DNA from: a virus
Virus record (IMG/VR): IMGVR_UViG_3300020473_000024
Span: 21,012-85,011 of that record
Strand: one strand, 5' to 3'
Length of the DNA stretch: 64,000 nt
Shown: in pieces, positions 4,564-47,754 of the stretch
Layout of the letters: each line of letters opens with the position of its first letter
Position numbering within the stretch: position 1 is the first letter of the stretch
Position numbers and translations under genes: made by a program
Notes under the pieces: generated by a model
The model's database searches: none
Told to the model about the DNA's origin: nothing
Seen by the model: the letters and a program-made list of their open reading frames with translations, nothing else

Positions 4564-6188
4564 ACCACACGGTGTTGGAAACGCGATGTGTTGCACCCGC
4601 ATGTATCCGCTGACGTAGGCAATCTACCATCATACTCCAGACGTGGATGGGCTAGGAAGCCTGTTCCATTAGGACTTAGTATGCTATTGCGTCTATGGCG
4701 GTAAGTCAACCAATGAACAATATCCTTGACATAAGCATATCTCTTACCCAACAACTCCAAGTTAGGGCAAAGCTTCTCCTTGTCGTCTCCATCAGTGTAA
4801 ATAGGCTGTGTAATAACCTTAAGGGGTCGAGAGAGATCGTGGTTTATCAGCTTATCTCTCATCTCCGCAATAGAGTTGACTTTTAAATGTTCTAATCGGA
4901 AAGGCTCTAGAGGACTATCTTTTGTCTCATCTATGTACCTCTCACAACTCTCTAGGAACTTAACACGGTCTAGTTTACGTTTCTTGCTGTCAAGAGTCAG
5001 GTCTTTATCTTTAAACGCAATAGGATTCCACCCCTGCCCTACAAGGTAAGATTTAATATCCCCTTGGTTAGCCAAGCGCATAGGCTCAGTCATAGGAGGC
5101 ATTTTCTTATCCTTAAGATCCTTTAAAGCCTGTTCCATCATCTCAGGGGGTAGAGGTTGCATTTCACCTTTCTCCCTGCTCTTCCTAATAAAATCTGGCA
5201 TGTCCTCTGGGTCAGTGATACCAGCTTGTTCACAGTATCTCTCCCCAGCCTTACTAATCGATCCATCTTGTTTAAAAGCTGTCTTAGGAGGAGCTTTAAA
5301 CTTAAGTACCTCGTTGTCCACAGGATACCCCAACTTCTCCAACCACGACCAACCATGACTACTAATCTCCCCATTGTCGGTGAAAGGTTTAGCAGGATAA
5401 CTAGGCTGTCTACTAGGAGGTAGTGGTCTAGGAGGTAATTTAGGCTCTACAACAGACTCTAATCGTTCCATTTCAGCATTAAGCCACTCCAAGTTTTCTT
5501 TGGCTAGCTGTTGGTCAAAAAAGAAGCCCTTTTCCTCACTACGTGATACTATCTCAGCAATAGCTTTTTCAACCCAATAGGCTTGATCCCAGTTCCAATT
5601 ACCTTTCTCTTGGATGAGGTATTGGTAGACTTTCTCGTTTACTTCCACATCTCGAATACAATATTCGAGCATTTCAGGGTGGTATACAGCAAACTCAGCA
5701 CCCTTGGGGTCACTGGGTGACACTAATCCCAACTCTTCGGCTTTAGCTCTCCAGTCAATCTTAGGCAATCCTAAAATCTTACCAAAGTCGTCTATTGAGT
5801 GACCCAACCTATCTGGGTTCAATGTTTTAGACAGCACAAGGGTGTCTTCAATAAAACAAGGCGATCCCTCTATTGTGTCCTCTAATGACCAATTATTAGC
5901 CTCAGCCTCTTTAGGATCACAGGTATCGGCTACTGTGAAACTAATGCCTAGTAGCTTACTACAAGCTCTTAAGTCATAGTTAATTATGTTGTGACCTATT
6001 AGGACAGAACACTTCTTCAAAAACTTGCTGAACATATTCAAAGGGAACTCACACTCAGGGTGATCCCCGAATGTGAAGATCTCCTTCGTATCAATATCTT
6101 TAGCAACAATACAGTGTATTTCTGTAATAGGATCTTCAACGTTAAGTAAGCCATTACCTTCTATATCAAATACGGCTCTTCTTCCCAT
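4564..6188 (-). CDS. DNA polymerase family A, exon 1 (3'-5' exonuclease domain); spliced product about 824 aa
   Basis: ExoI FDIEGNG, ExoII GHNIINYD, ExoIII YCIRDV; AGGAG RBS before ATG 6188. Confidence 0.92.
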
Positions 6189-36802: not shown

Positions 36803-37747
36803 TTAAAATTCTACGTTATATTTACCTACTTGGATAATATTCGGGATATCCAATAAATCCCACATGCGAACAACCTGAGGTCGATCATCAAACAAAGCAA
36901 TAACATTATACTTGCCACGAACTTGGTTGTCAAATAATTCATACTTAATAATGTCATCTTTTCGACTGTCTTTGGGAGATCGTTGGTAAAGATCCCATTT
37001 AATACCCAGCCGAGCTAAATCGTCTGTGATAATGTTGTCCTCAATCCACTGTGCAGAGGAATCGTAGCAGACTCCATCCCTGCCAGAAAAGAATGTAATA
37101 TGTCCCGTCTTAAGTGCTAGAGCACTCACCATATCGATGACCTCTTGGCGGGGCTTATCTAAATGAACTTTATCCCAATCAAAAGGTTTCCGAACACCAG
37201 TCATATCCGCAACAGTGCCATCTAAGTCCACGATGATAGTATCCTCTAGGAATAGACAATCTTCGTAGGGCTTGATTTTATTTCCACCAATAGTACCAAA
37301 TTGTTGCATAAAACGCTTGTATTGACTCCAAAGAAGACTTTCTGGTAAACCGCCCTCACGCTGTGCATTCCGTTTGACAAGTGTTTCCCAGCTTTCTTGG
37401 AAATATTTATACTCCACTTCATAGCCGTTCTCTTCAGCCCAACTCTCCCATTTACCTCGGATGGCTGGGCTGAGGTTCGTGTCAGAAATAATAATGTTAT
37501 GCTGTAGTACAGAGGCATCAAAAGCCTTTTGATCGACCACTTTTGTAACACGTTTTTCATTACTATTGTTGAACTTGTACTTTGTCCAATCCCGAACACC
37601 ATTGTTAAACAAAGCAAAGCGAATATCATCACGGTTGAGATTGACCCACTTAGGGTCTCCTTGCAGGGCTTGTTCTAAGATATACTCTTCAGCCCATTTT
37701 GTCTTACCAGAGCTGGACGCTCCTACAGTCATAATTAATTTAAGCAT
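36803..37747 (-). CDS. pseT: Polynucleotide 5'-kinase/3'-phosphatase (T4 PseT-like)
   Basis: GASSSGKT, NRDDIR, DTNL kinase; DLDGT, SGR, FDDR HAD phosphatase. Confidence 0.9.
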   Translation of the reverse strand: MLKLIMTVGASSSGKTKWAEEYILEQALQGDPKWVNLNRDDIRFALFNNGVRDWTKYKFNNSNEKRVTKVVDQKAFDASVLQHNIIISDTNLSPAIRGKWESWAEENGYEVEYKYFQESWETLVKRNAQREGGLPESLLWSQYKRFMQQFGTIGGNKIKPYEDCLFLEDTIIVDLDGTVADMTGVRKPFDWDKVHLDKPRQEVIDMVSALALKTGHITFFSGRDGVCYDSSAQWIEDNIITDDLARLGIKWDLYQRSPKDSRKDDIIKYELFDNQVRGKYNVIALFDDRPQVVRMWDLLDIPNIIQVGKYNVEF

Positions 37748-39042
37748 TAACTAGAATCCTCCATATCAACGTTGTTTTCTCTATAAATGCCCTCCAAAAT
37801 TTTAAAAGGGATAGACTTATTCTTATAGAACTTCGGCACTAACGTCTCTCCATCTACACGAATCACAACACCCTCGCTAATGTGGGATGGGTCTCGATAG
37901 TCCTCACAAAGGTTATCTTCACGCTCTGTTAATACGTCTACCACATTCATTAAACTGTCAGAGTCTCCTCGGTAAACAAAAGGCTCTACTAGATCAAGAG
38001 TAGATTCAATACCACGGTCTTCACACCAACGTTTGAATTGACTTTGTGTTAAATCAATTTCTGTGCCATCGATGGACGTGATTGTCACACGATAAGCATA
38101 AAACTTATACTCATCTGGGAGGCAGTTATAAGTGTAAGTAATCTCTTTACCATACTTCTTAGTGAACTGCTTATCCTTTAGTTTAGTTACGTCATGCGTA
38201 CCCATAATAGGTTTACCATTAGCAAAGCCTACAATCTCTCCATACACAGTAACACCTCGGTTAAGGAAGGGTTTTAGTTGCTCTAAAATCTCAAAGCGGA
38301 AGCCTTCATTACCGTGAAATCCTTCTTTATCTTTTTGAGAATTTTTAAGAACAACCCTGCGTGTCCCTGCTACATAATCCCACTCCTGAGTCTCGAAAAT
38401 AGGAACAACCTTATTTACAAGACGTTTCCACCAAGGTAATTCTTTCTCAACTAAGGTGTGGCTATAACGAGCCGATGTTCCATGACCTTTTGCTTGAATA
38501 CTAATAATAGAGCCAGCTGGAATGCGATCAACATGATACTTGAATTGATCAGTATCAACGTGTTGATGAAATAAAGGTGTTTCTTGCTTCTTACGCGCTT
38601 TTGTCCTTTGATTTGCTTGGGCTTTTTTAGTGCGAGGGTTGATATACTTCTGAGCAATAGGCACTCCATTTAGTTCTTCAAACATCATGCCTAACTCTAA
38701 CTTACTGATATCATACCCTGTAAAATGGAAGGACTCTAACCCAGCAAAGTAACCACACGACTTAACACCTAAGAAAGGTTGTGCGCGTACCCTGCGGTTA
38801 TCTTCAAAGAATCCCTTAGCCTTTGGGTTTTTGTTGTTTTCACTGTTACGATACAGCCCATTATCACTAACATAATCGTGAGATAGTTGAGTCTCAGCTG
38901 GGAAGTACACACCTAAGTCTCCCTCTTTAGCTGTCTTGGATACGATAACAGGCTCACCAAGTACATAAGCTACTTGGATGTTATCTGCTTTTTCAATCTG
39001 TTCTGTTTTTGCAATCTTAGCAATAATACCACAGTAGTTCAT
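37747..39042 (-). CDS. RNA ligase (DRB0094/Rnl5-like)
   Basis: N-terminal ADNIQ...GVYF domain; KGHGTS, YGEIVG, EGVVIR, KNKS; AGGAGG RBS before MNYCG. Confidence 0.8.
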   Translation of the reverse strand: MNYCGIIAKIAKTEQIEKADNIQVAYVLGEPVIVSKTAKEGDLGVYFPAETQLSHDYVSDNGLYRNSENNKNPKAKGFFEDNRRVRAQPFLGVKSCGYFAGLESFHFTGYDISKLELGMMFEELNGVPIAQKYINPRTKKAQANQRTKARKKQETPLFHQHVDTDQFKYHVDRIPAGSIISIQAKGHGTSARYSHTLVEKELPWWKRLVNKVVPIFETQEWDYVAGTRRVVLKNSQKDKEGFHGNEGFRFEILEQLKPFLNRGVTVYGEIVGFANGKPIMGTHDVTKLKDKQFTKKYGKEITYTYNCLPDEYKFYAYRVTITSIDGTEIDLTQSQFKRWCEDRGIESTLDLVEPFVYRGDSDSLMNVVDVLTEREDNLCEDYRDPSHISEGVVIRVDGETLVPKFYKNKSIPFKILEGIYRENNVDMEDSS

Positions 39043-39071
39043 TAAAATACCTCCTAAATTTAGACAATAAA

Positions 39072-39101
39072 AAGCCATGTACCCAAAAGGATACACGGCT
39101 T
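39072..39101 (-). terminator. Terminator hairpin after clpP-like gene
   Basis: AAGCCGTGTATCC-TTTT-GGGTACATGGCTTTT. Confidence 0.6.
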
Positions 39102-40483: not shown

Positions 40484-41059
40484 CTAAATATCTAAGAAAG
40501 TAGTGCGTTTACGCAACCAACCATATAAGAAGTGTTCATTTTTCTGATTATCTTCTACCAGACTTAAATAATACTCACCCTGTACAGAGTTTAACAGGTT
40601 AAATAAGATCTTCTCTCCTTCTTGGCTACCTCTTGATTCCAAGAAGTAAGTAAGGGATGCTTTTGTTCGACTCCCCATAACACCATCTACAACAATATCG
40701 GGATAGTCTCTCTCCTGTCTGTTAAGACCATTTAAACACCTTTGGAGCATCTTAACAGCTGTAGGTGTCCCACAGTTAACCCCAGTATCAAATACTTCTT
40801 TAGTAATAAGTCGAGAGTGAGGGAGGAGTAGGTCGAGATTAGGTTTATAAAAATAAACAGATACATAAATATCTCTAGCTGTAGATAAAGGCAAATCTTT
40901 CATACGCCCTGTGTAACCATACTGCCTTGCGGTTCTTTCGGTTATACCATACTTCGTAGCCCCTCCTGAATCTAAGGGGTCATTAGAATACAAGCCCTCT
41001 TTGTCGATAGTTTCATTTACGAAAAGTTGGACAAACTTAGGGGAACTTTTATAAGACAT
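40484..41059 (-). CDS. Endolysin, glycoside hydrolase family 108 with peptidoglycan-binding domain
   Basis: EGLYSNDPLDSGGATKYGIT, FDTGVNCG, DGVMG..T, FLYGW; AGGAG RBS before MSYKS. Confidence 0.88.
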   Translation of the reverse strand: MSYKSSPKFVQLFVNETIDKEGLYSNDPLDSGGATKYGITERTARQYGYTGRMKDLPLSTARDIYVSVYFYKPNLDLLLPHSRLITKEVFDTGVNCGTPTAVKMLQRCLNGLNRQERDYPDIVVDGVMGSRTKASLTYFLESRGSQEGEKILFNLLNSVQGEYYLSLVEDNQKNEHFLYGWLRKRTTFLDI

Positions 41060-41105
41060 ATCTTCTCCTGTGAGGTGGATTATACCAGTATAAGTATAAG
41101 AAGAG

Positions 41106-41182
41106 TGGTGGGTCGAGAGGGATTTGAACCCCCGATCCACTCGTTAAAAGCGAGTTGCCTTACCAGACTTGGCTATCGACCC
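41106..41182 (-). tRNA. tRNA-Lys(TTT)
   Basis: Cloverleaf, ACTCG-CTTTTAA-CGAGT, encoded CCA. Confidence 0.93.
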
Positions 41183-41187
41183 TGATT

Positions 41188-41262
41188 TGGAGCTTGCTGG
41201 GGGTTACGATCCCCCGACCTCTGCTTGGAAGGCAGATATTTTACCAATTAAACTAAGCAAGC
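41188..41262 (-). tRNA. tRNA-Gly(TCC), atypical T-loop ATCGTAA
   Basis: GCTTGCT/AGCAAGC acceptor, TCTGC-CTTCCAA-GCAGA, U73, CCA. Confidence 0.85.
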
Positions 41263-41267
41263 CAATG

Positions 41268-41344
41268 TGGTGCGCCAAGGCGGTTATGATCCGCTCCTAC
41301 TCCTAGTTATGAGCTAGTTGCTTTCCCGATTAAGCTATTGGCGC
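41268..41344 (-). tRNA. tRNA with CAT anticodon (elongator Met or Ile2), atypical T-loop ATCATAA
   Basis: GCGCCAA/TTGGCGC acceptor, CTAG-CTCATAA-CTAG, CCA. Confidence 0.8.
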
Positions 41345-41349
41345 GAAAA

Positions 41350-41425
41350 TGGTAGTGGTGGCAGGAATCGAACCTGCGACACGTAGATTATCGGTCTACT
41401 GTTCTACCAGCTGAACTACACCACT
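41350..41425 (-). tRNA. tRNA-Ile(GAT) with C33
   Basis: GTAGA-CCGATAA-TCTAC, TTCGATT, CCA. Confidence 0.88.
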
Positions 41426-41429
41426 GGAT

Positions 41430-41506
41430 TGGCTGAGGTGGAGGGATTCGAACCCCCGACCATCTGCTTAGAAGGCAGATGCTCTATCCAACTGAGCTAC
41501 ACCCCA
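41430..41506 (-). tRNA. tRNA-Arg(TCT)
   Basis: TCTGC-CTTCTAA-GCAGA, A20, CCA; starts immediately after the upstream stop codon. Confidence 0.93.
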
Positions 41507-42916
41507 TTAAACTAAAAATACTGGATCATACCGAGAATCTAGAACAGTTTCGTACATGATATCCAAAGGACTCACCACCTTAGAAGATAACACTGATCTC
41601 ATAATAGATGGGCTAAATCCACTTACTAAAGCTGTACCATTATCTTGCTTCTGGACAGGGTAGTTCTCTTGTCGAGAGCAGACATTCCAGAAAATTAAGT
41701 CAGGTCTTTTATAACCAGCTTTCTCAAACATCTTATCAATAGTGGCGAAGTTAGTCATCCCACCACAAGCACAATCAAATTCCATGTCACTGATGATCAT
41801 AATCTTATTAGGAAGTTCACTTTGGTCTAAACCATGCTTTACAGCCGATTCCAGTACAAGTTGAAATACAGCGATCAAGTTTGTATTGAAACCCCAATCC
41901 GAGTTGTATAGAGATCGAAGTTTACTATATAGCTTATCTCCTTTAACATTCTGTAAAGAAGGTCTTTCAGAGAAAGTAATAAACTTATTGTTAAACTTAC
42001 CTTCGATACGTTCTGATAGATAAAGACCTAAGCTAACAGCAACATCCATAGCCGTTGTACTACCACTAACTTTGATGTGCATACTCCCAGAGGTGTCAAC
42101 CACAGGAAGAATGCTAAAACTCTCTCCTTCAAAGTAATCTGGAAGGGCTTCCCACTGTTCGTTCGCGGCTGTTGTATTACCACCTTCTCGCATACTTTTA
42201 ATAATATCGTAAGGATATACCGCCCCAGCGTTAATCTTAGCCTCACCTTTACTAAGCTTATCTAAGTAGCTTCTGTAACGATTCTCATCATTACGTAAGA
42301 AAGATTTTTGATATCGAGCCGAAGCTACTGAAGGTACATGCTCATAGTTGATCTTGTCAAACTCTTTAGCACACATTTTTTGTTCCACAGTATCGCTCAA
42401 GCTAGACAGCATCTTACGGTACTCTTTTGAGCGAAGCCCCATGTGTTTACGTAGCAGTACAGCATAATCTCGTTTAGCTGACTTCTCACGAGGACACCAT
42501 TTAGCGGCTAGCGCACTACCTTCTTTAAGCTTTGAGGCATAAAAAGAAAGCATAGCCTCTTCTAAATCCGTACCAACAAACGTAAACAGATTATCATAGC
42601 GAGTCAACTCAACAACCTTGTCAAAAAGTTCTGTAGTGTTAAGGTCTTCTGTCAACTCTGGTAGAAGTTTAACAAGGTCTTTAAAAATTTGTCTTTCACC
42701 AGCTCCTTGGCGCACATCACCAGCCCATAAAAGAATACGGGTGGCTAATCCTTTATCCTCATTCCAAGCTCGTACAAACTTGTGATCGATATTCTTACCG
42801 CGAGAAGCCCCGATAGTAGCGAATAGATCTAAATTAGCGTCTAAGCTCGAAGAATTAGTGATAGCCCCGTTTTCAGTACGAGACATACCTGTTTGCATAG
42901 CATCAAATAATTCCAT
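41507..42916 (-). CDS. TROVE/Ro60-like helical domain plus vWA protein (DUF2828-type), 469 aa
   Basis: TENGA, DVRQGAGER, LAAKWCPRE, VPSVA; MIDAS DTSGSM, T, SDMEFD, FWNV, SGFS; AGGAGG RBS before ATG 42916. Confidence 0.8.
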   Translation of the reverse strand: MELFDAMQTGMSRTENGAITNSSSLDANLDLFATIGASRGKNIDHKFVRAWNEDKGLATRILLWAGDVRQGAGERQIFKDLVKLLPELTEDLNTTELFDKVVELTRYDNLFTFVGTDLEEAMLSFYASKLKEGSALAAKWCPREKSAKRDYAVLLRKHMGLRSKEYRKMLSSLSDTVEQKMCAKEFDKINYEHVPSVASARYQKSFLRNDENRYRSYLDKLSKGEAKINAGAVYPYDIIKSMREGGNTTAANEQWEALPDYFEGESFSILPVVDTSGSMHIKVSGSTTAMDVAVSLGLYLSERIEGKFNNKFITFSERPSLQNVKGDKLYSKLRSLYNSDWGFNTNLIAVFQLVLESAVKHGLDQSELPNKIMIISDMEFDCACGGMTNFATIDKMFEKAGYKRPDLIFWNVCSRQENYPVQKQDNGTALVSGFSPSIMRSVLSSKVVSPLDIMYETVLDSRYDPVFLV

Positions 42917-42932
42917 AAATCCTCCTAAATTC

Positions 42933-42982
42933 TGAATGTGTTTTGCTTCCATATCGCGGATTTGTTTTGCTGTATACATTCA
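42933..42982 (-). ncRNA. UACAGCAA module 1 (stem-loop directly upstream of the vWA gene RBS)
   Basis: TGAATGT/ACATTCA stem, TACAGCAA, inner TCC-GCGATAT-GGA. Confidence 0.6.
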
Positions 42983-42994
42983 TCCAATTAAAAC

Positions 42995-43048
42995 AGTGTT
43001 GCTTTTTCTTTTTATCCCATAAAAGTATAAAGTTGCTGTAACAACACT
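42995..43048 (-). ncRNA. UACAGCAAC module 2
   Basis: AGTGTTGT/GCAACACT stem, TACAGCAAC, inner CTTTT-ATGGGAT-AAAAAG. Confidence 0.65.
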
Positions 43049-43054
43049 TCAGAC

Positions 43055-43113
43055 AGGATGCTATACATAGTTTGATTAAAAGTCAAATTGTGTAAAGTTG
43101 CTGTAAGCATCCT
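43055..43113 (-). ncRNA. UACAGCAAC module 3 with a tRNA-Lys(UUU)-like anticodon stem-loop
   Basis: AGGATGCT/AGCATCCT stem, TACAGCAAC, inner TTTGA-CTTTTAA-TCAAA. Confidence 0.7.
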
Positions 43114-43202
43114 CTCGGAAAAGCTGTTAAGCCTAACACTGAAAAGTTGAGGTGAACCACATCCCTCTTACCCCGTGGTAACATCGGGTTTTAAATATAT
43201 TG

Positions 43203-43317
43203 TTGAGGGGGCTGGATTCGAACCAGCGACCAACGGCTTATCATGCGAGTATAGTTGCTGTAATTATACTTAACAGTATAAATATTACGTTGCTCTACCA
43301 AACTGAGCTACCCCTCA
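43203..43317 (-). ncRNA. tRNA-Ile(GAT)-like RNA with 41-nt UACAGCAAC insert in the anticodon stem (module 4)
   Basis: TGAGGGG/CCCCTCA acceptor, GCTC-AGTTTGGTA-GAGC D arm, GCTGG-TTCGAAT-CCAGC T arm; ACG[insert 43287-43247]GC-ATGATAA-GCCGT; no encoded CCA. Confidence 0.8.
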
Positions 43318-43324
43318 AAAATAT

Positions 43325-43507
43325 ACCCTACACTAACGCAGTAGGCTCGGAATGTTTGGTAACAGAGCTAACCATTCTTAGCTCCGCATGGGTGTAGCTA
43401 TTAGGCTACTGCCGCCATGTGGTATGTACTATCGTTTGCATTTATAACGATTAGTCATAGTTGCTGTAGGGACGACGACCCCCACCGATGTCTTCTCAGA
43501 ACATCGA
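43325..43507 (-). ncRNA. Module 5: UACAGCAAC RNA carrying a tmRNA-like tag reading frame
   Basis: ATAAAT|GCA AAC GAT AGT ACA TAC CAC ATG GCG GCA GTA GCC TAA TAG; stops in hairpin GTAGC-CTAATA-GCTAC; downstream pseudoknot GGAGCTAA/TTAGCTCT plus GAATG/CATTC. Confidence 0.65.
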
Positions 43508-43512
43508 GAAAT

Positions 43513-43540
43513 ATACTAACATACTAAATTTATTTGTCAA
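43513..43540 (-). promoter_or_regulatory. Sigma70-type promoter driving the RNA array, vWA gene and tRNA cluster
   Basis: TTGACA-16 nt-TAGTAT with TG extension. Confidence 0.6.
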
Positions 43541-43560
43541 TACATTTTTCGATATTTTTA

Positions 43561-43713
43561 GAAGCTGGAGCTTCACTGAGATACAGGCTCTCCACTCCGT
43601 AACTTTCCTGTATTGCTTCATTAAACCCTATAAACACGCATTATAGGTTGCGGTAGGACTTTTATATCCCGACCCTGCGTATCGGTTTGAGGTATCCGCT
43701 AGTGGATAACTTC
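43561..43713 (-). ncRNA. Unknown structured RNA, about 150 nt
   Basis: Ends GAAGTT/AGCTTC pair; hairpins TATCC/GGATA, CCTATAA/TTATAGG, ATACAGG/CCTGTAT; no ORF; own promoter. Confidence 0.5.
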
Positions 43714-43722
43714 AATACATCT

Positions 43723-43750
43723 ATTTTACCACAACATCACTAGTTGTCAA
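43723..43750 (-). promoter_or_regulatory. Sigma70-type promoter
   Basis: TTGACA-16 nt-TAAAAT with TGTGG before -10. Confidence 0.7.
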
Positions 43751-43760
43751 CCACTTTTTG

Positions 43761-43952
43761 CTAAAAAGTTAAAGTTGCTTGCTTACCTTGTTTCCGAAGT
43801 CGATAGAGTCGCTTCATTTCTTTGTAAAACAAACGCTGACAGCTATCCAACTCTACTGTACCGTTAAGATCAGCTGTGTATTTAACAACAGGTTGTGTTT
43901 TGGTATAAGAGTGAGCTAATTTACGTAATTCACGCGCTTTCTTCCCGTTCAT
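43761..43952 (-). CDS. Small basic hypothetical protein
   Basis: MNGKKARELRK...; TAATG coupling. Confidence 0.6.
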   Translation of the reverse strand: MNGKKARELRKLAHSYTKTQPVVKYTADLNGTVELDSCQRLFYKEMKRLYRLRKQGKQATLTF

Positions 43953-44446
43953 TAACCAAGCTCCTTGAGGTGGTTGATAACAATCATGTCATACTCACCT
44001 TCATCTAAAGGGTTTGCTACTAAGACTTCTTCCAGATCCGAAAAGGTTAGGTCAAACTTCTCGCAAACAGTTCCCATAAAGAATCCTGAAAACTCCGAGG
44101 AGTTAGCCTCTGCTACAGATTTTATCTGGGCTGTTAAGAGGCAACCTTTAAGCACCTCAACCAAATCTTCTTTGGTGACAGAGTTTGACTCAGCCTTGAC
44201 ATCTAGAACAGCGTTAAAAACAATTTCAAGAGCGTCTTGAGAGCCACCCACCTCCTCTTCAAGTTCTTCAAAGAAACTACGAGGATTGTCTGAGAATCCT
44301 TTCTCTTTACGACCCAACATTAGCCCACAAACAGCTGTGGCTAAGTCATTGTAAGCTGATCGAAAACTATCATATTCAAAAGGAGTAGAAAAACATTCCA
44401 TCACTAATTTAAGATCTTTAGCATACTTGTTTAAAATAGTGCTCAT
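43952..44446 (-). CDS. Acidic hypothetical protein
   Basis: Packed in operon; N-terminus resembles 44448..44711. Confidence 0.65.
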   Translation of the reverse strand: MSTILNKYAKDLKLVMECFSTPFEYDSFRSAYNDLATAVCGLMLGRKEKGFSDNPRSFFEELEEEVGGSQDALEIVFNAVLDVKAESNSVTKEDLVEVLKGCLLTAQIKSVAEANSSEFSGFFMGTVCEKFDLTFSDLEEVLVANPLDEGEYDMIVINHLKELG

Positions 44447-44447
44447 A

Positions 44448-44711
44448 TTACACCACCGTTTCTGTGATTAACTTGTATAGGTTTCCGATATTTGGCTCAC
44501 CATAAACTTCTTTAACAGCTTCAACCACTGGCTCTAACACCGTGTTACCAAAACTATTTTCATCACTAACAACGTCTTTAGCAAGGAGATAACCAAAAGC
44601 ACTTGCCTGTAGATTATCGTAAGCTACTGAGAAATCGGTGATATCTTCAACACTTCCGATGCTCATTAACAATTTCATTGTCTCGATGTAAGATTTAACA
44701 TTAGTATCCAT
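44448..44711 (-). CDS. Hypothetical protein
   Basis: GGAGG RBS. Confidence 0.6.
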   Translation of the reverse strand: MDTNVKSYIETMKLLMSIGSVEDITDFSVAYDNLQASAFGYLLAKDVVSDENSFGNTVLEPVVEAVKEVYGEPNIGNLYKLITETVV

Positions 44712-45270
44712 TTAACTTGTCCTCCAGTTGTTTAATAAGTTTTTTGACTCCAATGTTCGTATCCACTTTAAAGTCAAATGTCTCGAATGTCAAGAGATAT
44801 TTTTTAAGCCACTCTTTAAATTCAGCCGCCTTCATCTCTTTAGCTGACTCTTCGATAGTTGCCATGTCAGGTAAGTTAGGTACATCCTTCAGGCTTTCCT
44901 CTTTGTCAACAACAACCATATTACCACAATCTTCTTCACTGTCAATAGTTTTTTCAAAATTTTCTTTCTTTACAACTTCCAATGTGACAGGAGAGAAGAA
45001 AGAGTTCTCACCAATATCTTGTTTCAACTTGTTGATGGTCTTTTCCATGTCAACTTTAACACCACTTTGTCCATGCTGGTATAAGGCATACATCAGATGC
45101 TCAATACCGTTATAGGTGTCATACTCTCCACCAACATAGTAAATCTTAGGGTAATAGTGGTTTGTACGAGGCAGATTACCAACACTACCAATCAAAACAC
45201 GATCAAAGTATTTATCCGCTTCAAACACCATTTCTAACAAACTTTTCATATTCAAAACTAATTTTTCCAT
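44701..45270 (-). CDS. Hypothetical protein
   Basis: AGGAGG RBS; promoter-like TTGACA...TAACCT upstream. Confidence 0.7.
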   Translation of the reverse strand: MEKLVLNMKSLLEMVFEADKYFDRVLIGSVGNLPRTNHYYPKIYYVGGEYDTYNGIEHLMYALYQHGQSGVKVDMEKTINKLKQDIGENSFFSPVTLEVVKKENFEKTIDSEEDCGNMVVVDKEESLKDVPNLPDMATIEESAKEMKAAEFKEWLKKYLLTFETFDFKVDTNIGVKKLIKQLEDKLNGY

Positions 45271-45381
45271 ATATCCTCCTTAAGTTAAGTCTACAAAAGG
45301 TTACTCCATAAGTAACAAACTGTCAACCCCCTGTAACCAAATATAGTGACATCTGGGATTGTAACCTTATTTAATTACATG

Positions 45382-45670
45382 TCTTGACAAGACAAAAGAC
45401 ATGATACCCTATAGATCTAATAGTCTATTAGCATATAAATATACTAATATCCTATAAGATCTATAAAACAAACAATATATAGATCTAATAATCTATTAAT
45501 ATCTATCTGTATAAATAAATTTATACATCTATCTATTAATATCTTATAAGATCTATATAATAGATATTGATTTTAACATGTGTTTTTTGTTCTGTCAAGT
45601 GTTTTATGAAAAATTTTTATGAATTGTTTGTTTGACTTGTTGGTTTTGTTCTGTTATGTTGTGTTGTTAC
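45382..45670 (+). other. Promoter-like box plus AT-rich AGATCT repeats plus T-rich stretch, candidate origin
   Basis: TCTTGACA...TGATACCCTAT then four AGATCT-centred units and TCTATTA repeats. Confidence 0.4.
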
Positions 45671-45686
45671 AACTGATTGAGGAGGA

Positions 45687-46679
45687 ATGAGTATGGAATT
45701 TTTAGCTAAGTTTGTACATGGAAGTCATCTTTACAAACTAAACACACCTGCATCTGACACCGATTTTAAAGGTGTCCATGTACCTAGTCTTGACGACCTG
45801 TTGTTGTGTGATGCCACCCATCACATTAACTTGGGTACGGACAAGAAAAGTGGGAGTAAAAATACAAAAGACGATGTTGATTTTGAAAGTTATTCTATCC
45901 ACAAGTGGGTAGACCTACTATCCAAAGGAGAGATGGTGTGTTTTGACATGTTGTTTGCTCCAGAGGATTGTGTGGAGTATTACCACAAAGGTGAGGTGAC
46001 GACAGACCCAGCCCTGTTGGAAAGAAATCCTGTGTGGATTATCCGAAACCGTTATAAGGATTTGTTTGTGCATTCAGATATGAAGGCTTACCTAGGCTAT
46101 TGCCGTAGACAAGCTAGTAAGTATGGTATCAAAGGAAGTCGATTGCACAGCCTTTTTGAGATCCAAGGTGTGTTAGAAAACCTAGATATCCGCAGGAAAG
46201 ATAGATTATACAATTACGTAGAGAAACTACCTACTAATGAATATTTGAAATTAGAGGACGACCACTACGAGGTGTTGGGTAAGAAACACCAACTAACAAC
46301 CTATATGGAAGAGTTTTGTGATAGAATTACTGCGGAGATCAACAAATATGGTAATCGGGCTGTCCAAGCGGAAAAGAACGAAGGTGTTGATTGGAAGGCG
46401 GTTAGCCACGCTTTTCGTGCAGGGTATCAGATCCAGAGTATGCTCTATACAGGAGAGATGTTTGTTGTACTACCTGACGAGATTAGAAAGTATGTCTTAA
46501 AACTTAAAAAAGGGGAATTGGATTGGACAACAGAAGTAAAACCTAATCTGGAGAAACTTATGAACATAGTGGAGTTAATCGCTAGAGAAAATCCCTTAGA
46601 TCTTCCAGAGAAACCAGATAAAGGGGTTATTCAAGAAAAACTTCTAGAGATCTTGAAAGATTTTAACAATATCTCTTGA
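45687..46679 (+). CDS. Pol-beta-superfamily nucleotidyltransferase (T4 NrdC.11/RlaP-like)
   Basis: HGSHLYKLNTPASDTDFKG (GS...DxD), DWKAVSHAFR. Confidence 0.8.
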   Translation: MSMEFLAKFVHGSHLYKLNTPASDTDFKGVHVPSLDDLLLCDATHHINLGTDKKSGSKNTKDDVDFESYSIHKWVDLLSKGEMVCFDMLFAPEDCVEYYHKGEVTTDPALLERNPVWIIRNRYKDLFVHSDMKAYLGYCRRQASKYGIKGSRLHSLFEIQGVLENLDIRRKDRLYNYVEKLPTNEYLKLEDDHYEVLGKKHQLTTYMEEFCDRITAEINKYGNRAVQAEKNEGVDWKAVSHAFRAGYQIQSMLYTGEMFVVLPDEIRKYVLKLKKGELDWTTEVKPNLEKLMNIVELIARENPLDLPEKPDKGVIQEKLLEILKDFNNIS

Positions 46680-46740
46680 CAAATACGCTTATCATGCTAT
46701 AATACTACTATAGATAAATAAATCAACTTAAGGAAGGGGA

Positions 46741-46953
46741 ATGTGTAGATGTCGAGCTTGCAATCGTGAATTAGATTTAGAGACTCTTGTAGCACACAAA
46801 CCTGACGGATCTTTAGAGGATTTATGTTCAGTTTGTAGAAATAAGAGCAACAGTGAATATAACATCCTCTTTGATCATGAGTACGGGCAGTCATCAATTA
46901 CTGGTGATGCCCCTACTCCGTCAAGTAACTACTACTACGAATTACACGATTAA
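46741..46953 (+). CDS. Small Zn-ribbon protein
   Basis: CRAC...CSVC; promoter TTGACA-16 nt-TATAAT upstream. Confidence 0.65.
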   Translation: MCRCRACNRELDLETLVAHKPDGSLEDLCSVCRNKSNSEYNILFDHEYGQSSITGDAPTPSSNYYYELHD

Positions 46954-46984
46954 TAAAATAAAACAAATTAATATTAAATAATTC

Positions 46985-47013
46985 TTGACAATAGAAGAAA
47001 TACGTGTTATAAT
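46985..47013 (+). promoter_or_regulatory. Consensus sigma70 promoter upstream of sRNA, tRNAs and terminase
   Basis: TTGACA-17 nt-TATAAT. Confidence 0.8.
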
Positions 47014-47064
47014 AAACTACGTTTATAACATAATGGAATAAGCGTGTCTAGGCACGTTTAGTAT

Positions 47065-47126
47065 TAGTTTGTTGTCCTGTGTCCTCCTCCAACGCAGGAG
47101 CGCCTTGCTTCGGCAGGGCGCAACTA
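47065..47126 (+). ncRNA. Candidate small RNA with CCUCCUCC loop
   Basis: TCCTGTGT-CCTCCTCCA-ACGCAGGA plus GCGCCTTGC-TTCG-GCAGGGCGC, closed by TAGTT/AACTA. Confidence 0.5.
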
Positions 47127-47137
47127 CTTAATTCAAT

Positions 47138-47214
47138 AGCGGAGTGGAGAAGTTTGGTATCTCGCCAGACTCATTATCTGGAGGTCGGGTGTTCGAATCA
47201 CCCCTCCGCAACCA
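47138..47214 (+). tRNA. Initiator-like tRNA-fMet(CAT) with U37
   Basis: Unpaired A1:A72, A11-U24, CCAGA-CTCATTA-TCTGG, CCA. Confidence 0.85.
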
Positions 47215-47218
47215 ATCA

Positions 47219-47295
47219 CTCTGTGTAGCTCAGTTTGGGAGAGCATATGCTTTGGGAGCATAGGGTCAGAGGTTCAAGTCCTTTCACAGAGACCA
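47219..47295 (+). tRNA. tRNA-Pro(TGG)
   Basis: TATGC-TTTGGGA-GCATA, C1-G72, CCA. Confidence 0.93.
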
Positions 47296-47299
47296 ATTC

Positions 47300-47375
47300 G
47301 GGGAATTAGCTCAGTGGTCAGAGCGTCTGCCTGTTAAGCAGAGGGTCACTGGTTCAAATCCAGTATTCCCCTCCA
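47300..47375 (+). tRNA. tRNA-Asn(GTT)
   Basis: TCTGC-CTGTTAA-GCAGA, CCA; discriminator U. Confidence 0.88.
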
Positions 47376-47400
47376 ATTAATTTAATATTAGGAGGTTGTT

Positions 47401-47745
47401 ATGTCTAGATTTCGAAAAGGGAAGAGTGGCAACCCTAAAGGAAGACCTAAAGGAAGTCTTAATAAAGATAACCCACAGACAAAACTTAAACAAGCACTTT
47501 CAAATGGTTATGATATTAAAAAGCTAAAAGCTTTAATATTAGAATATATCTCAGACGAAAATACTAAAATGAGTCCTAAGGATATTAAAGACCTTTTGAA
47601 ATTAGCCTTAGATGCAGAAATTAAATTGCTTAGAATAGCTTTCGATCAAGACGAAAAATCAAAGCCACTTAGTGAACATGAAGAAGACTTAGATTTTGAC
47701 GATGATGATGATGATGTTCCAGAGGTGAGTTTGAAAGCTCGTTAG
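47401..47745 (+). CDS. Putative terminase small subunit
   Basis: FRKGKSGNPKGRPKG motif; directly upstream of TerL. Confidence 0.65.
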   Translation: MSRFRKGKSGNPKGRPKGSLNKDNPQTKLKQALSNGYDIKKLKALILEYISDENTKMSPKDIKDLLKLALDAEIKLLRIAFDQDEKSKPLSEHEEDLDFDDDDDDVPEVSLKAR

Positions 47746-47754
47746 GAGGTATGA

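What the first reader, a model, noticed from the sequence alone, without database searches (positions are those of the whole stretch)
43203..43317. tRNA-Ile(GAU) interrupted by a 41-nt insert in the 5' strand of the anticodon stem
Seen: acceptor, D and T arms are canonical. Removing 43287-43247 (TAATATTTATACTGTTAAGTATAATTACAGCAACTATACTC) joins ACG+GC into ACGGC, which pairs perfectly with GCCGT around loop ATGATAA. The insert is a circularly permuted version of modules 2 and 3: there the 3' strand ends ...CT-GT, and here CT-GTTA links directly to the 5' strand and TACAGCAAC. No CCA is encoded, unlike all eight canonical tRNAs here. The insert is too short for a group I intron and is not at the usual 37/38 site. 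Inference: either a tRNA mimic tethered to the Ro-like protein (YrlA analogue) or a protein-processed tRNA intron that could be sealed by the phage Pnkp and RNA ligase.
Basis: partly seen in the sequence, partly recalled or inferred. Interest (0 to 1): 0.85.

Follow-up and report, generated by a model that had tools for sequence, protein, structure and literature searches.

The report
Phage tRNA carrying a Ro-protein handle
This phage gene encodes a tRNA-shaped RNA whose anticodon stem carries a conserved 41-base module, one of a large unrecognised family found only in phages that also encode a Ro60-like RNA-binding protein, so it is most likely a protein-bound tRNA mimic and not a broken or intron-bearing tRNA.

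Summary
Window 43203-43317 (-) is a full cloverleaf (Rfam tRNA 49.2 bits). A 41-nt insert (43287-43247) lies between positions 29 and 30 of the anticodon stem, and no CCA is encoded.

It is not a one-off. I collected 87 distinct relatives: KVP40-like vibriophages (annotated "tRNA-Pseudo"), Aeromonas Ahp1, Cronobacter S13, cyanophage BUCT-ZZ01 and about 100 viral contigs. All carry the same module at the same site: a hairpin closed by CUG-NN-AAG, a 3-4 nt spacer, then CAGCAA. All six helices covary.

The module is a circularly permuted copy of an open "handle" (AAG-helix-spacer-CAGCAA ... helix-CUG) that clusters beside DUF2828/DUF7788 (Ro60-like) genes. That gene is present in 15 of 15 complete genomes carrying the class.

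Several results argue against a spliced, decoding tRNA:
- anticodons differ on identical scaffolds;
- Ser/Tyr anticodons sit on short-arm scaffolds;
- 8-nt loops occur;
- ordinary isoacceptors coexist;
- no insert-free alleles, BHB motif or endonuclease were found, and ligases are dispensable.

Best reading: a Y-RNA-like tRNA mimic tethered to the Ro-like protein, displaying an anticodon loop. Binding and function are inferred. The scan had already noted the neighbouring handle modules in this genome.

The parts
43203..43317 (-). Whole tRNA-shaped RNA (115 nt) with natural tRNA ends and no encoded CCA
   Evidence: Rfam tRNA 49.2 bits; own model R1 127.5 bits; the only member in the 85-kb genome
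43288..43317 (-). 5' body: acceptor 5' strand (43317-43311), D arm (43308-43292), first 3 nt of the anticodon stem (43290-43288)
   Evidence: the acceptor, D and lower anticodon helices covary across the class
43282..43287 (-). J1: A/U-rich joiner from the lower anticodon stem to the handle hairpin
   Evidence: A-rich in the class listing
43264..43281 (-). Handle hairpin: 7-bp helix whose inner end is C-G, U-A, then G..A closed by two nucleotides (CUG-UU-AAG)
   Evidence: 83 of 87 members have this loop form; 4 of 5 modelled pairs show changes on both sides
43254..43263 (-). UUA spacer plus the single-stranded CAGCAAC tail, the conserved core of the handle
   Evidence: 86 of 87 members have a C-N-G-C-R tail here; the same spacer and tail occur in open handles next to DUF2828 genes
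43247..43253 (-). Linker from the tail to the upper anticodon stem (variable in the class)
43233..43246 (-). Upper anticodon stem (2 bp), 7-nt loop AUGAUAA (GAU) and 3' strand of the whole stem
   Evidence: upper and lower stems covary; in the 7-nt loops of the class U33 is kept in 59 of 61 and A/G37 in 57 of 61
43203..43232 (-). Variable region, T arm (43227-43211), acceptor 3' strand and discriminator A
41507..42979 (-). DUF2828 + DUF7788 (vWA) protein, Ro60-like; proposed partner of the handle. Its start lies 224 nt downstream of the RNA
   Evidence: Pfam 4.4e-49 and 6.3e-30; PHROG 850 'RNA-binding protein'; TROVE/vWA_Ro60 clusters are the nearest non-DUF2828 look-alikes; best PDB profile hit is phage Ro60 9KOP, E 0.013, MIDAS stretch only
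43054..43113 (-). Open handle module 2 (AG-helix, UA spacer, CAGCAA, 35-nt cargo hairpin with loop CUUUUAA, helix-CUG)
42994..43048 (-). Open handle module 3 (same handle, 29-nt cargo hairpin)
43400..43480 (-). Module 1: fourth copy of ACAGCAAC (43467-43460) bulged between two helices. Boundaries approximate, read by eye
43513..43540 (-). Sigma-70-like promoter (TTGACA, 16 nt, TAGTAT, TG extension) ahead of the RNA array
   Evidence: a consensus match only; 6 sites found against 6.8 expected in shuffles
36803..39096 (-). Pnkp (36803-37747) and RNA ligase (37747-39096): RNA-repair genes of the neighbourhood, not obligatory partners of the class
   Evidence: Pfam; ligase tallies

Best explanation
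The gene encodes a non-decoding, tRNA-shaped RNA that carries a protein-binding handle. It is the natural-ends, circularly permuted counterpart of a Y RNA.

Steps that are shown:
- The RNA folds as a normal cloverleaf.
- The anticodon arm is a three-way junction. The lower 3 bp and upper 2 bp share a continuous 3' strand and can stack into a normal anticodon arm with a tRNA-like 7-nt loop.
- The third arm is a 7-bp hairpin followed by a single-stranded UUA-CAGCAAC tail.
- This hairpin plus tail is the same motif, with its ends re-joined, as the open handles that flank small hairpin cargos beside DUF2828/DUF7788 genes.
- In Felixounavirus, the same open handle closes a circularly permuted cloverleaf.

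Steps that are inferred:
- The array is transcribed from the promoter at 43540-43513 together with the Ro-like gene.
- The tRNA body lets RNase P and 3'-end enzymes cut the RNA out.
- The Ro60-like DUF2828 protein binds the handle.
- The particle thereby holds out an anticodon loop, whose triplet is the fast-changing part of the family, to some anticodon-reading factor.

My best guess for the purpose is phage counter-defence or tRNA repair: a bait or platform for anticodon nucleases or other tRNA-directed host systems. That last step is speculation.
For: Class membership:
- blastn finds insert-bearing homologues in 32 phage records: 30 Vibrio, 1 Aeromonas, 1 Synechococcus.
- Model R1 finds long hits in 92 of 145 pattern loci at strict cut-offs.
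- This gives 87 distinct sequences.

Structure:
- 97.9% of cells pair, against 38-50% with slid partners.
- 23 of 26 pairs change on both sides. The alignment is model-fitted, which favours the model.

Handle identity:
- The same AG-helix, 3-nt spacer, CAGCAA tail and CUG occur in 43 open modules.
- Their density is 0.25 per kb within 800 nt and on the strand of DUF2828 genes. It is 0.022 farther away, 0.0026 on the opposite strand and 0.012 in control loci.

Partner:
- DUF7788 is present in 28 of 35 large contigs with the class, and in 17 of 17 that are at least 90% complete.
- With the 3 records not confirmed by the model dropped, the counts are 26 of 32 and 15 of 15.
- All 4 named phages tested have it.
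- The control gave 0 of 50.
- The RNA lies next to the gene in the window, BUCT-ZZ01, S13 and L056.

Ro60 likeness:
-.
- PMC11482910 (passage read) says Bas63 gp130, a 42% identical homologue, resembles Ro60 in structure and counters the Ppl defence.

Topological twin:
- The MFE fold of Bas63 L335:6955-7086 is a handle closing an anticodon hairpin, T arm, closed acceptor stem and D arm.
- It is conserved in 251 records.

Not a decoder:
- 35 of 66 pairs with at least 85% identical scaffolds differ in anticodon, some at 100% scaffold identity.
- 12 of 12 members with Ser/Tyr anticodons have 4-6 nt variable regions.
- 13 of 87 members have 8-nt loops.
- Only 6 of 39 loops equal that of the ordinary isoacceptor in the same locus.
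- An ordinary tRNA with the same anticodon is present in 26 of 35 loci, including the window.
Against: - No binding or expression data exist; the link to the DUF2828 protein rests on co-occurrence and adjacency.
- The co-occurrence control was not matched for genome size or lineage. Only a few controls exceed 100 kb.
- In KVP40 the gene lies about 10 kb from the RNAs.
- Only 22 of 67 DUF2828 loci show an open handle under my strict definition. Few show the tRNA-embedded form.
- Rfam's YrlA model does not match the locus, and Pfam does not place the protein in TROVE.
- Features that a pure protein handle would not need are kept: U33 and purine 37 in most loops; a stem that becomes perfect once the insert is removed; and an encoded CCA in 64 of 87 members, following the habit of the local ordinary tRNAs in 15 of 16 loci. 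These fit a spliced tRNA as well as a mimic.
- The data set is biased by the search pattern, which fixes the T loop and handle loop, and contains many related phages.
Confidence: 0.55

Rival explanations
1. A new kind of protein-dependent tRNA intron. The handle marks the pre-tRNA, an unknown endonuclease cuts at both ends of the insert, and Pnkp plus RNA ligase (phage or host) seal the exons. The product would be a working tRNA.
For: - Removing the insert restores a perfect 5-bp stem in the window, and by inspection throughout the listing.
- The upper and lower stems covary.
- The loops keep U33 in 59 of 61 and a purine at 37 in 57 of 61.
- CCA is encoded in 64 of 87 members.
- Pnkp and RNA ligase lie within 7 kb in the window.
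Against: - 0 of 87 insert-removed forms are at least 90% identical to any of 1858 ordinary tRNAs in the same loci. For ordinary tRNAs compared with each other the figure is 34 of 87.
- Anticodons differ on identical scaffolds.
- Ser/Tyr anticodons sit on short-arm scaffolds, 12 of 12.
- 13 of 87 members have 8-nt loops.
- A32 occurs in 37 of 61 7-nt loops, and the loop frame is generic, unlike the cognate tRNA's.
- An ordinary isoacceptor is present in 26 of 35 loci.
- The two insert ends are no more complementary than shuffles, 3.13 against 3.28.
- No tRNA-intron endonuclease domain is found in the 99% complete genome.
- 3 of 15 complete class-bearing genomes lack the Rnl1, Rnl2-type and RtcB families.
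- The same handle also flanks cargos that are not tRNAs.
Confidence: 0.15
2. Mainly a processing signal. The tRNA body is kept so that RNase P and 3' enzymes cut the long transcript and release the neighbouring handle modules and the Ro-like mRNA. On this view the insert has no role of its own in this copy.
For: - The RNA sits inside an array with no terminator-like site between the promoter at 43540 and the DUF2828 gene.
- The gene's stop abuts a tRNA.
- According to PMC4201824 (passages read), tRNA-like domains of YrlA are RNase P substrates.
Against: - An ordinary tRNA would serve as well.
- The insert is conserved in sequence and structure across very distant phages.
- Many members stand in tRNA clusters far from any handle module.
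Confidence: 0.1
3. The handle is real but is read by something other than the DUF2828 protein, such as a host factor, another phage protein or another RNA pairing with CAGCAA. On this view the co-occurrence reflects shared lineage of large tRNA-rich phages.
For: - The control for co-occurrence was not size- or lineage-matched.
- In KVP40 the gene and the RNAs are 10 kb apart.
Against: - Open handles are enriched about 100-fold on the gene's strand within 800 nt compared with the opposite strand.
- Adjacency recurs in unrelated phages: the window, a cyanophage, Cronobacter S13 and Felixounavirus.
Confidence: 0.12
4. A decaying tRNA pseudogene with a chance insertion.
For: GenBank records and two genome papers call the KVP40-type copies pseudo-tRNAs (PMC3468402 and PMC5107563, passages read).
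Against: - The same module sits at the same site in 87 distinct sequences, with compensatory changes in every helix.
- The real pattern gives 108 hits against 4 for the control pattern.
Confidence: 0.02

Closest known systems
Bacterial and phage Y RNAs of the YrlA type bound by Ro60/Rsr (Chen et al. 2014, PMC4201824, passages read; Rfam RF02553)
   Same: - A tRNA-like body with D and T arms is joined, at the place of the anticodon stem, to a module for a ring-shaped Ro-type protein.
- It is encoded beside that protein's gene, in an RNA-repair neighbourhood.
   Different: - Here the RNA has natural tRNA ends, and the handle is a closed hairpin inserted in the stem. YrlA has its ends in the Ro-binding stem and a closed acceptor.
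- A complete anticodon loop is kept.
- The conserved motif is CAGCAA with a CUG/AAG helix end, which differs from the YrlA motif.
- RF02553 does not match.
- The protein is DUF2828/DUF7788, outside Pfam TROVE.
Felixounavirus Bas63 (JohannRWettstein) gp130 and the RNAs downstream of it (PhageMaP preprint, PMC11482910, passage read)
   Same: - gp130 is a homologue of the window's protein: 42% identity over 94%.
- The same CAGCAA handle occurs four times between its tRNA genes.
- One copy closes a complete cloverleaf.
   Different: - The Bas63 cloverleaf is circularly permuted, with an open handle and a closed acceptor, so it is the YrlA topology. The window's RNA is the opposite isomer.
- The preprint guessed that some annotated tRNAs might be Y RNAs. 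The RNAs I see lie in unannotated gaps or under small CDS calls on the other strand.
Thermus phage phiLo Ro60 with Yrl1/Yrl2 and host PNPase (PMC12135203, passages read; PDB 9KOP, 9L5Y)
   Same: - A phage-encoded Ro-type protein (helical ring plus vWA) with partner RNAs encoded just upstream.
- It is the best PDB profile hit of the DUF2828 alignment.
   Different: - phiLo Ro60 is a true TROVE protein.
- Its Yrl RNAs are stem-bulge-stem RNAs with a CGAA motif, and a tRNA body is not described in the passages I read.
- The PDB similarity here is weak (E 0.013) and limited to the MIDAS stretch.
Archaeal non-canonical tRNA introns in the anticodon stem, for example between positions 29 and 30 (recalled from general knowledge, no call)
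   Same: A short insert at the same kind of position, whose removal restores the stem.
   Different: - There is no bulge-helix-bulge pairing and no splicing endonuclease.
- The organism is a bacterial virus.
- The insert has its own conserved hairpin and tail.
Phage tRNAs that defeat tRNA-cutting defences, such as T5 tRNA against PARIS and phage tRNAs against retron effectors (PMC11464382, PMC11555353; search listing and abstract starts only)
   Same: Phage-encoded tRNA-like molecules whose anticodon arm is the feature that matters in a conflict with host nucleases. This matches the fast turnover of the triplet seen here.
   Different: - Those are ordinary, decoding tRNAs that replace cut host tRNAs.
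- These RNAs carry a 41-54 nt handle and probably cannot decode.
'tRNA-Pseudo' / 'tRNA-OTHER' annotations in KVP40, phi-pp2, phi-Grn1, phi-ST2, Ahp1 and S13
   Same: The same RNA family.
   Different: - They are annotated as pseudogenes. The papers report 'GCA' or 'TGC' anticodons, which I take to be the CAGCAA/CUGCAA tail misread (inference from PMC3468402 and PMC5107563, passages read).
- Two KVP40 copies are not annotated at all.

Membership tests
tRNA (Rfam RF00005) | Cloverleaf scoring above the family's gathering score | tested here: met
   49.2 bits against a gathering score of 29, full model 1-71
tRNA (Rfam RF00005) | Uninterrupted 5-bp anticodon stem; recognised by a tRNA gene finder | tested here: not met
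   41 nt lie between stem positions 29 and 30; ARAGORN tRNAs in the window but not this one
tRNA (Rfam RF00005) | Body and anticodon belong together (identity), as needed for decoding | tested here: not met
   Class level only. 35 of 66 near-identical scaffold pairs differ in anticodon. 12 of 12 Ser/Tyr anticodons are on short-arm scaffolds. 13 of 87 loops are 8 nt.
tRNA (Rfam RF00005) | Aminoacylation and use on the ribosome | not testable with these tools
   Needs acid-urea northern blots or tRNA-seq
YrlA / bacterial Y RNA (Rfam RF02553) | Match to the family's covariance model | tested here: not met
   No YrlA match at 43203-43317 up to E 5. The only weak YrlA hits (30.6 and 25 bits against a gathering score of 69) lie on ordinary tRNAs.
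YrlA / bacterial Y RNA (Rfam RF02553) | tRNA-like domain with D and T arms | tested here: met
YrlA / bacterial Y RNA (Rfam RF02553) | 5' and 3' ends form the protein-binding stem; acceptor closed by a loop | tested here: not met
   The ends are those of a tRNA. The feature is met by the Bas63 relative.
YrlA / bacterial Y RNA (Rfam RF02553) | Encoded beside a Ro60 (TROVE) orthologue | tested here: inconclusive
   The RNA lies 224 nt upstream of a DUF2828/DUF7788 gene. That protein is Ro60-like only by weak or indirect evidence (PMC11482910). No Pfam TROVE hit in 28 of 28 homologues.
YrlA / bacterial Y RNA (Rfam RF02553) | Bound by the Ro protein | not testable with these tools
Group I intron in a tRNA gene | Group I catalytic core, insertion in the anticodon loop | tested here: not met
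   The only Intron_gpI match in the window is at 4266-4592. The insert is 41 nt and lies in the stem.
Archaeal-type (BHB) tRNA intron | Bulge-helix-bulge formed by the two exon-intron junctions | tested here: not met
   Longest helix between the insert ends averages 3.13 nt against 3.28 in shuffles, n = 86
Archaeal-type (BHB) tRNA intron | Splicing endonuclease available | tested here: not met
   PF01974 is absent from the 99% complete genome. The control rings in 4 archaea. Host genes were not examined.
CAGCAA-handle RNAs of DUF2828 phages (provisional class from this scan) | Helix ending in A-U and G-C next to a G/A pair (AAG ... CUG), 1-4 nt spacer, CAGCAA tail on the AAG strand | tested here: met
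   The window's insert has a 7-bp helix, a UUA spacer and CAGCAAC, the same as 43 open modules, with the ends joined by 2 nt
CAGCAA-handle RNAs of DUF2828 phages (provisional class from this scan) | Genome encodes a DUF2828/DUF7788 protein | tested here: met
   The window; 15 of 15 confirmed complete genomes; 4 of 4 named phages

The most novel reading that the evidence does not exclude
The family is a swappable bait library. A Ro60-like protein grips the handle and holds out a generic anticodon arm (frame A-U-NNN-A-A) in which only the triplet is under diversifying selection. Each copy would therefore be tuned to one anticodon-reading host weapon or enzyme. GUN triplets make up 28 of 61 7-nt loops. 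The particle would trap such factors, report on them, or present cut arms to Pnkp and ligase. This would be a new counter-defence principle: protein-mounted RNA decoys. It would also give the first function for the very common phage DUF2828 proteins.
Probability: 0.3. Interest if true: 0.9.

Novelty: new variant of a known kind. Interest (0 to 1): 0.8.

Why it matters
- DUF2828/DUF7788 proteins occur in 711 of 50,697 phage records. These include the Felix O1, KVP40, Listeria A511-type, Campylobacter, Staphylococcus and mycobacteriophage groups. Their RNA partners have not been described in the papers I could search.
- This finding ties a recurrent annotation nuisance ("pseudo-tRNAs" of large phages) to that protein through one modular handle.
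- One RNP design appears in three topologies: a handle around a small hairpin, a handle closing a permuted cloverleaf, and a closed handle inside a normal cloverleaf.
- It offers a natural example of circular permutation between two functional RNA isomers.
- It provides a defined motif for binding studies, and cultured phages (KVP40, S13, BUCT-ZZ01, Bas63) in which to test it.
- One homologue is already reported to counter a defence system (Ppl).
- If the anticodon display proves to be a decoy or repair platform, it would extend the current picture of phage-host conflict over tRNAs.
- For annotation, these genes should be called neither tRNA-Ile/Val/Ser nor pseudogenes.

Tried and rejected
- **Loose first pattern.** AGAGCA...CTGNNAAG...GCAA returned at least 119 stretches. 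In the 80 loci scanned with R1, none had a long model hit at the pattern site. I treated them as chance matches and reused part of them as control contigs.
- **Word enrichment.** An 8-mer count around DUF2828 genes gave only A/T-rich words and was dropped.
- **Loose open-handle scan.** My first scan showed no enrichment: 47 per Mb in DUF2828 loci against 64 in controls. I tightened the definition to a stem of at least 7 bp and a spacer of 1-4 nt. Only then did I see the strand- and distance-specific enrichment. The definition was therefore chosen after seeing examples.
- **Protein against the PDB.** A sequence search of the protein found nothing. The profile search gave only a weak MIDAS-region hit.
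- **Pfam at E up to 10.** No TROVE hit in 28 of 28 homologues.
- **Structure prediction.** I made no fold and ran no fold search, so 'Ro60-like' is not shown structurally here.
- **Cellular genomes.** The pattern gave at least 120 stretches. In the 80 loci examined, the hits were ordinary tRNAs or archaeal intron-bearing tRNAs, plus one D-arm-less look-alike in a Bacteroides MAG contig. I did not examine the remaining stretches.
- **Window-specific alternative pairing.** The linker after the tail repeats the 5' strand of the handle helix. This is not conserved in relatives (read by eye), so I rejected it.
- **Rfam.** A lenient scan of 40500-48000 found no known family for the insert or modules. 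YrlA is also absent at E up to 1 on the Bas63 modules.
- **Rate comparison.** Anticodon against scaffold rests on only 14 non-independent pairs and is suggestive at most.
- **Literature.** I found no description of these RNAs in searches 17 (DUF2828), 20, 21, 22, 55, 56 and 72. The KVP40 genome paper (PMC180978) is not held, so I saw nothing of it. I did not ask for them, so Chen et al.'s supplemental tables of phage Y RNAs and PhageMaP's Supplementary Fig. 7E were not seen and may bear on novelty.
Full report
**1. The observation**

On the minus strand, window 43317-43203 reads as a complete cloverleaf:
- a 7-bp acceptor stem;
- a D arm at 43308-43292;
- a 5-nt variable region;
- a T arm at 43227-43211 with the usual T loop;
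- a discriminator A.

After three nucleotides of the 5' strand of the anticodon stem (43290-43288) come 41 nt (43287-43247). These are followed by two more stem nucleotides, a 7-nt loop with GAU in the anticodon position, and an unbroken 5-nt 3' strand.

Rfam's tRNA model matches end to end at 49.2 bits (gathering score 29), skipping 52 nt in the middle. ARAGORN finds the eight ordinary tRNAs of the window but not this gene. All eight ordinary tRNAs encode CCA and this gene does not.

**2. It belongs to a large family**

A blastn search of the intergenic region against phage genomes hit only the tRNA-like, insert included. There were 32 records: 30 KVP40-like Vibrio phages, Aeromonas phage Ahp1 and Synechococcus phage BUCT-ZZ01. 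In KVP40 the homologue is annotated 'tRNA-Pseudo-3'.

I aligned four of these and built a covariance model, R1. The model then found:
- five copies in the KVP40 tRNA cluster, two of them unannotated;
- two copies right after the DUF2828 gene of BUCT-ZZ01;
- two copies after that gene in viral contig L056;
- two copies after it in Cronobacter phage S13.

A pattern made of the T loop, the tail and the hairpin loop found 108 and 37 stretches in viral contigs, one scan for each of two T-loop variants. The first pattern with its motif letters reversed found 4. R1 confirmed long hits in 92 of these 145 loci at strict cut-offs. It confirmed 10 of the 13 further loci that I re-examined at E up to 0.01.

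Together with the named phages this gives 87 distinct sequences of at least 100 nt. One of them, L058:44-154, lacks the handle.

In cellular genomes the pattern mostly hits ordinary or archaeal intron-bearing tRNAs. I saw one possible relative in 80 loci examined. The window's own 85-kb, 99% complete genome has only this one copy.

**3. Anatomy of the insert**

In the family the insert is 40-54 nt long in 86 of the 87 sequences; the exception, at 28 nt, is the handle-less L058:44-154. It always follows the first two or three nucleotides of the 5' strand of the anticodon stem. It consists of:
- an A-rich joiner;
- a 6-7 bp hairpin whose inner end reads C-U-G, two free nucleotides, then A-A-G, in 83 of 87 members;
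- a 3-4 nt spacer;
- a tail C-A/U-G-C-A-A, with the C-N-G-C-R form in 86 of 87 members;
- a variable 7-12 nt linker into the upper stem.

On the model-fitted alignment of 54 distinct rows, 97.9% of cells pair, against 38-50% when partners are slid by 1-3 columns. In total 23 of 26 pairs change on both sides. These include all three pairs of the lower anticodon stem, four of five pairs in the hairpin and both modelled pairs of the upper stem. The alignment was fitted to this structure, which favours it. The slid controls and the number of pair types still make the helices convincing.

The arm is thus a three-way junction. The 3' strand of the anticodon stem is continuous, so the upper and lower parts can stack into a normal arm while the hairpin sticks out.

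The consensus fold of the window's copy costs -28.5 kcal/mol against an MFE of -33.6. This is acceptable for an RNA with tertiary and protein contacts.

**4. The insert is a permuted 'handle'**

The window's intergenic array has three more copies of ACAGCAAC. In two of them (43113-43054 and 43048-42994) the layout is as follows:
- a helix begins with A-G, after a purine;
- it is followed by a 1-2 nt spacer and CAGCAA;
- it encloses a roughly 30-nt hairpin cargo;
- it is closed by the complementary strand ending C-U, then G.

An earlier agent of this scan had noted these modules as a shared handle carrying anticodon-hairpin mimics (e1-6123612).

I found the same open handle in 43 distinct modules next to DUF2828 genes. 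The spacer is 3 nt in 27 of them and the tail is CAGCAA in 34.

With a definition tightened after a first, uninformative scan, the densities are:

| Location | Open handles per kb |
|---|---|
| Within 800 nt of DUF2828 genes, on their strand | 0.25 |
| Farther away, same strand | 0.022 |
| Opposite strand | 0.0026 |
| Unrelated viral loci | 0.012 |

Under this definition, 22 of 67 DUF2828 loci have at least one open handle.

In the tRNA insert the helix, the UUA spacer and the CAGCAAC tail are the same. The C-U-G and A-A-G ends, however, are joined by two nucleotides, and the chain enters and leaves elsewhere.

**5. A topological twin in Felixounavirus**

Bas63 (Escherichia phage JohannRWettstein) gene 130 is a 42% identical homologue of the window's protein. 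Four open handles lie between the tRNA genes downstream of it, in unannotated gaps or under small CDS calls on the other strand.

One of them, L335:6955-7086, folds at minimum free energy into this order of parts:
- handle helix;
- CAGCAA bulge;
- an anticodon-type hairpin with a 7-nt loop;
- T arm;
- a 7-bp acceptor stem closed by a tetraloop;
- D arm;
- and back into the handle.

This is a circularly permuted cloverleaf, the YrlA design. It holds the same parts in the same circular order as the window's RNA. The break is at the handle, whereas in the window's RNA it is at the acceptor end. The element is conserved in 251 phage records. I did not test it for covariation.

**6. The partner protein**

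ORF 41507-42979 (-) starts 224 nt downstream of the RNA. It matches DUF7788 (4.4e-49) and DUF2828 (6.3e-30), with weak vWA signals. It also matches PHROG 850, 'RNA-binding protein'. tblastn finds homologues in 711 phage records, many annotated 'Ro-like RNA binding protein'.

The evidence that it resembles Ro60 is as follows:
- The nearest non-DUF2828 clusters by language-model features are TROVE/vWA_Ro60 clusters, at 0.91-0.92; that set accounts for 24 of 30 hits.
- The best PDB hit of the family profile is the Thermus phage Ro60, at E 0.013 and over the MIDAS stretch only.
- The PhageMaP preprint states that Bas63 gp130 is structurally similar to Ro60, counters the Ppl defence and may bind tRNA-like RNAs (PMC11482910, passage read).
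- The alignment keeps the DxSxS MIDAS residues and several arginines invariant.

Co-occurrence with the RNA class:

| Set of records | DUF7788 present |
|---|---|
| Large contigs carrying the class | 28 of 35 |
| Of those, at least 90% complete | 17 of 17 |
| After dropping 3 records not confirmed by R1 at the pattern site | 26 of 32 |
| Complete records in that confirmed set | 15 of 15 |
| Named phages KVP40, Ahp1, S13, BUCT-ZZ01 | 4 of 4 |
| Contigs of chance-hit loci, used as control | 0 of 50 |
| Complete records among those controls | 0 of 18 |

The control contigs are mostly smaller genomes, so the control is weak on size and lineage.

**7. Decoder or mimic?**

Features that look like a real tRNA:
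- Among 61 seven-nucleotide loops, U33 is kept in 59, a purine at 37 in 57 and A38 in 56.
- CCA is encoded in 64 of 87 members. It follows the habit of the ordinary tRNAs of the same locus in 15 of 16 loci, the window being the exception.
- The stem becomes perfect when the insert is removed.

Features against decoding:
- Of the 87 loops, 13 have 8 nt and 13 are of other lengths; some of the latter are parse failures.
- A32, unusual in tRNAs, is present in 37 of 61 7-nt loops.
- All 12 members with Ser or Tyr anticodons have 4-6 nt variable regions. Bacterial tRNA-Ser and tRNA-Tyr have long arms (general knowledge).
- Among scaffold pairs at least 85% identical, 35 of 66 differ in anticodon. 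Some pairs with 100% identical scaffolds read GUU against GUC or UGA against UGU.
- The window's nearest scaffolds carry GUU, UUU and AUU.
- Only 6 of 39 loops equal the loop of the ordinary isoacceptor in the same locus. For example, ordinary Asp tRNAs have CUGUCAC where the class has AUGUCAA.
- In 26 of 35 loci that hold at least 10 ordinary tRNAs, an ordinary tRNA with the same anticodon is present. This includes the window: tRNA-Ile GAU at 41350-41425, which has C33.
- None of the 87 insert-removed forms is at least 90% identical to any of 1858 ordinary tRNAs in the loci (maximum 0.85). Among ordinary tRNAs, 34 of 87 have such a neighbour. So there is no sign of insert-free alleles.
- In 14 close pairs the triplet and the insert differ at about 0.12 per site, the scaffold at 0.015 and the loop frame at 0. 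The pairs are few and not independent.

**8. Tests of the intron reading**

- The insert is too small for a group I intron and lies in the wrong place. The only group I match in the window is at 4266-4592.
- The two ends of the insert are no more complementary than shuffled controls: mean longest helix 3.13 against 3.28, n = 86. So there is no bulge-helix-bulge.
- The genome has no tRNA-intron endonuclease domain.
- The window does encode Pnkp and an RNA ligase nearby. But of the 15 confirmed complete class-bearing genomes, 3 have no Rnl2-type, Rnl1-type or RtcB ligase. All 15 have the DUF7788 gene.
- The same handle also encloses cargos that are not tRNAs.

A host-dependent, so far unknown splicing route cannot be excluded. 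I give it 0.15.

**9. Most likely mechanism**

Shown:
- a conserved three-way-junction anticodon arm on an intact tRNA body;
- a handle shared, in permuted form, with RNAs that cluster beside Ro60-like genes;
- strict co-occurrence with that gene;
- fast turnover of the displayed triplet on a constant frame.

Inferred:
- The array from the promoter-like site at 43540-43513 through the modules into the DUF2828 gene is one transcript.
- tRNA-end enzymes release the RNA.
- The Ro-like protein binds the handle, as Ro60 binds the Y RNA stem.
- The particle shows an anticodon loop to a factor that reads anticodons.

Speculative:
- That factor is a host anticodon nuclease or another tRNA-directed defence, with the particle acting as bait or as a repair platform for Pnkp and ligase.
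- GUN triplets (GUC 17, GUU 6, GUA 4, GUG 1) make up 28 of the 61 seven-nucleotide loops. That would fit enzymes that read G34-U35, but the sample is biased by my search pattern.

**10. Comparison with what is known, and novelty**

The closest known system is Ro60 with tRNA-mimicking Y RNAs (PMC4201824). Phage examples include Thermus phage phiLo (PMC12135203) and the speculation about Bas63 (PMC11482910).

The window's RNA works like a Y RNA in design, but it fails the family tests: there is no RF02553 match, it has natural tRNA ends, it has a different motif, and the protein is outside Pfam TROVE.

In the papers I could search these RNAs appear only as 'pseudo' tRNAs with odd anticodons (PMC3468402, PMC5107563). 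I could not see the KVP40 genome paper or any supplements.

I rate the finding as a new variant of a known kind. It is of high interest because it defines the RNA partner class of a very common phage protein and offers cultured systems for testing.

Noticed in passing
L335:6955-7086 (+), Escherichia phage JohannRWettstein (Bas63): A circularly permuted cloverleaf (anticodon hairpin, T arm, acceptor stem closed by a tetraloop, D arm) enclosed by an open CAGCAA handle. It lies under two small CDS calls on the other strand (bas63_0137, bas63_0138). It is conserved in 251 phage records, one of which annotates it as tRNA-Thr.
   Followed up: partly
L335:6248-6316, 6415-6474, 6870-6939 (+): Three further open handles with 35-45 nt cargos lie between the tRNA genes just downstream of Bas63 gene 130. 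None is annotated as RNA.
   Followed up: partly
L001:572-691 and 959-1081 (+), Vibrio phage KVP40: Two more members of the insert-bearing class that the RefSeq record does not annotate. KVP40 has five in all within 2.6 kb.
   Followed up: partly
L058:44-154 and 7439-7543 (+), viral contig: Long tRNA-like genes, one directly after a DUF2828 gene, whose inserts lack the usual CUG-NN-AAG hairpin. They may be a second insert type.
   Followed up: no
L416:4455-4559 (-), contig binned with an uncultured Bacteroides MAG: A handle hairpin, CAGCAA tail, anticodon-type hairpin and T arm, but no recognisable D arm. This is the only class-like hit among the 80 cellular-genome loci examined.
   Followed up: no
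L323:270-938 (+), viral contig: A tandem array of five insert-bearing tRNA-likes with different loops within 670 nt.
   Followed up: no
window 41350-41425 (-): The ordinary tRNA-Ile(GAU) has C at position 33 (loop CCGAUAA), while the handle-bearing copy has the usual U33.
   Followed up: partly
window 43325-43400 and 43120-43200 (-): Stretches between the modules and the tRNA-like that hold no ORF of note. I did not explain them; only a weak tmRNA-fragment hit lies nearby, 11.6 bits at 43390-43446.
   Followed up: no
window 4266-4592 (-): A group I intron match, 69.9 bits against a gathering score of 50.
   Followed up: no
Several pattern loci (ARAGORN rows): Ordinary-looking phage tRNAs of about 92 nt with long extra arms. 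They are called tRNA-Ile(tat), tRNA-Asn(gtt) or 'tRNA-Stop(tta)' and sit in the same tRNA clusters as the class.
   Followed up: no
L375:3507-3613 (+), Bathyarchaeia MAG: An archaeal tRNA with an intron in the anticodon-stem region that matched my pattern by chance. Its insert is a perfect 10-bp palindrome-like hairpin, unrelated to the handle.
   Followed up: no
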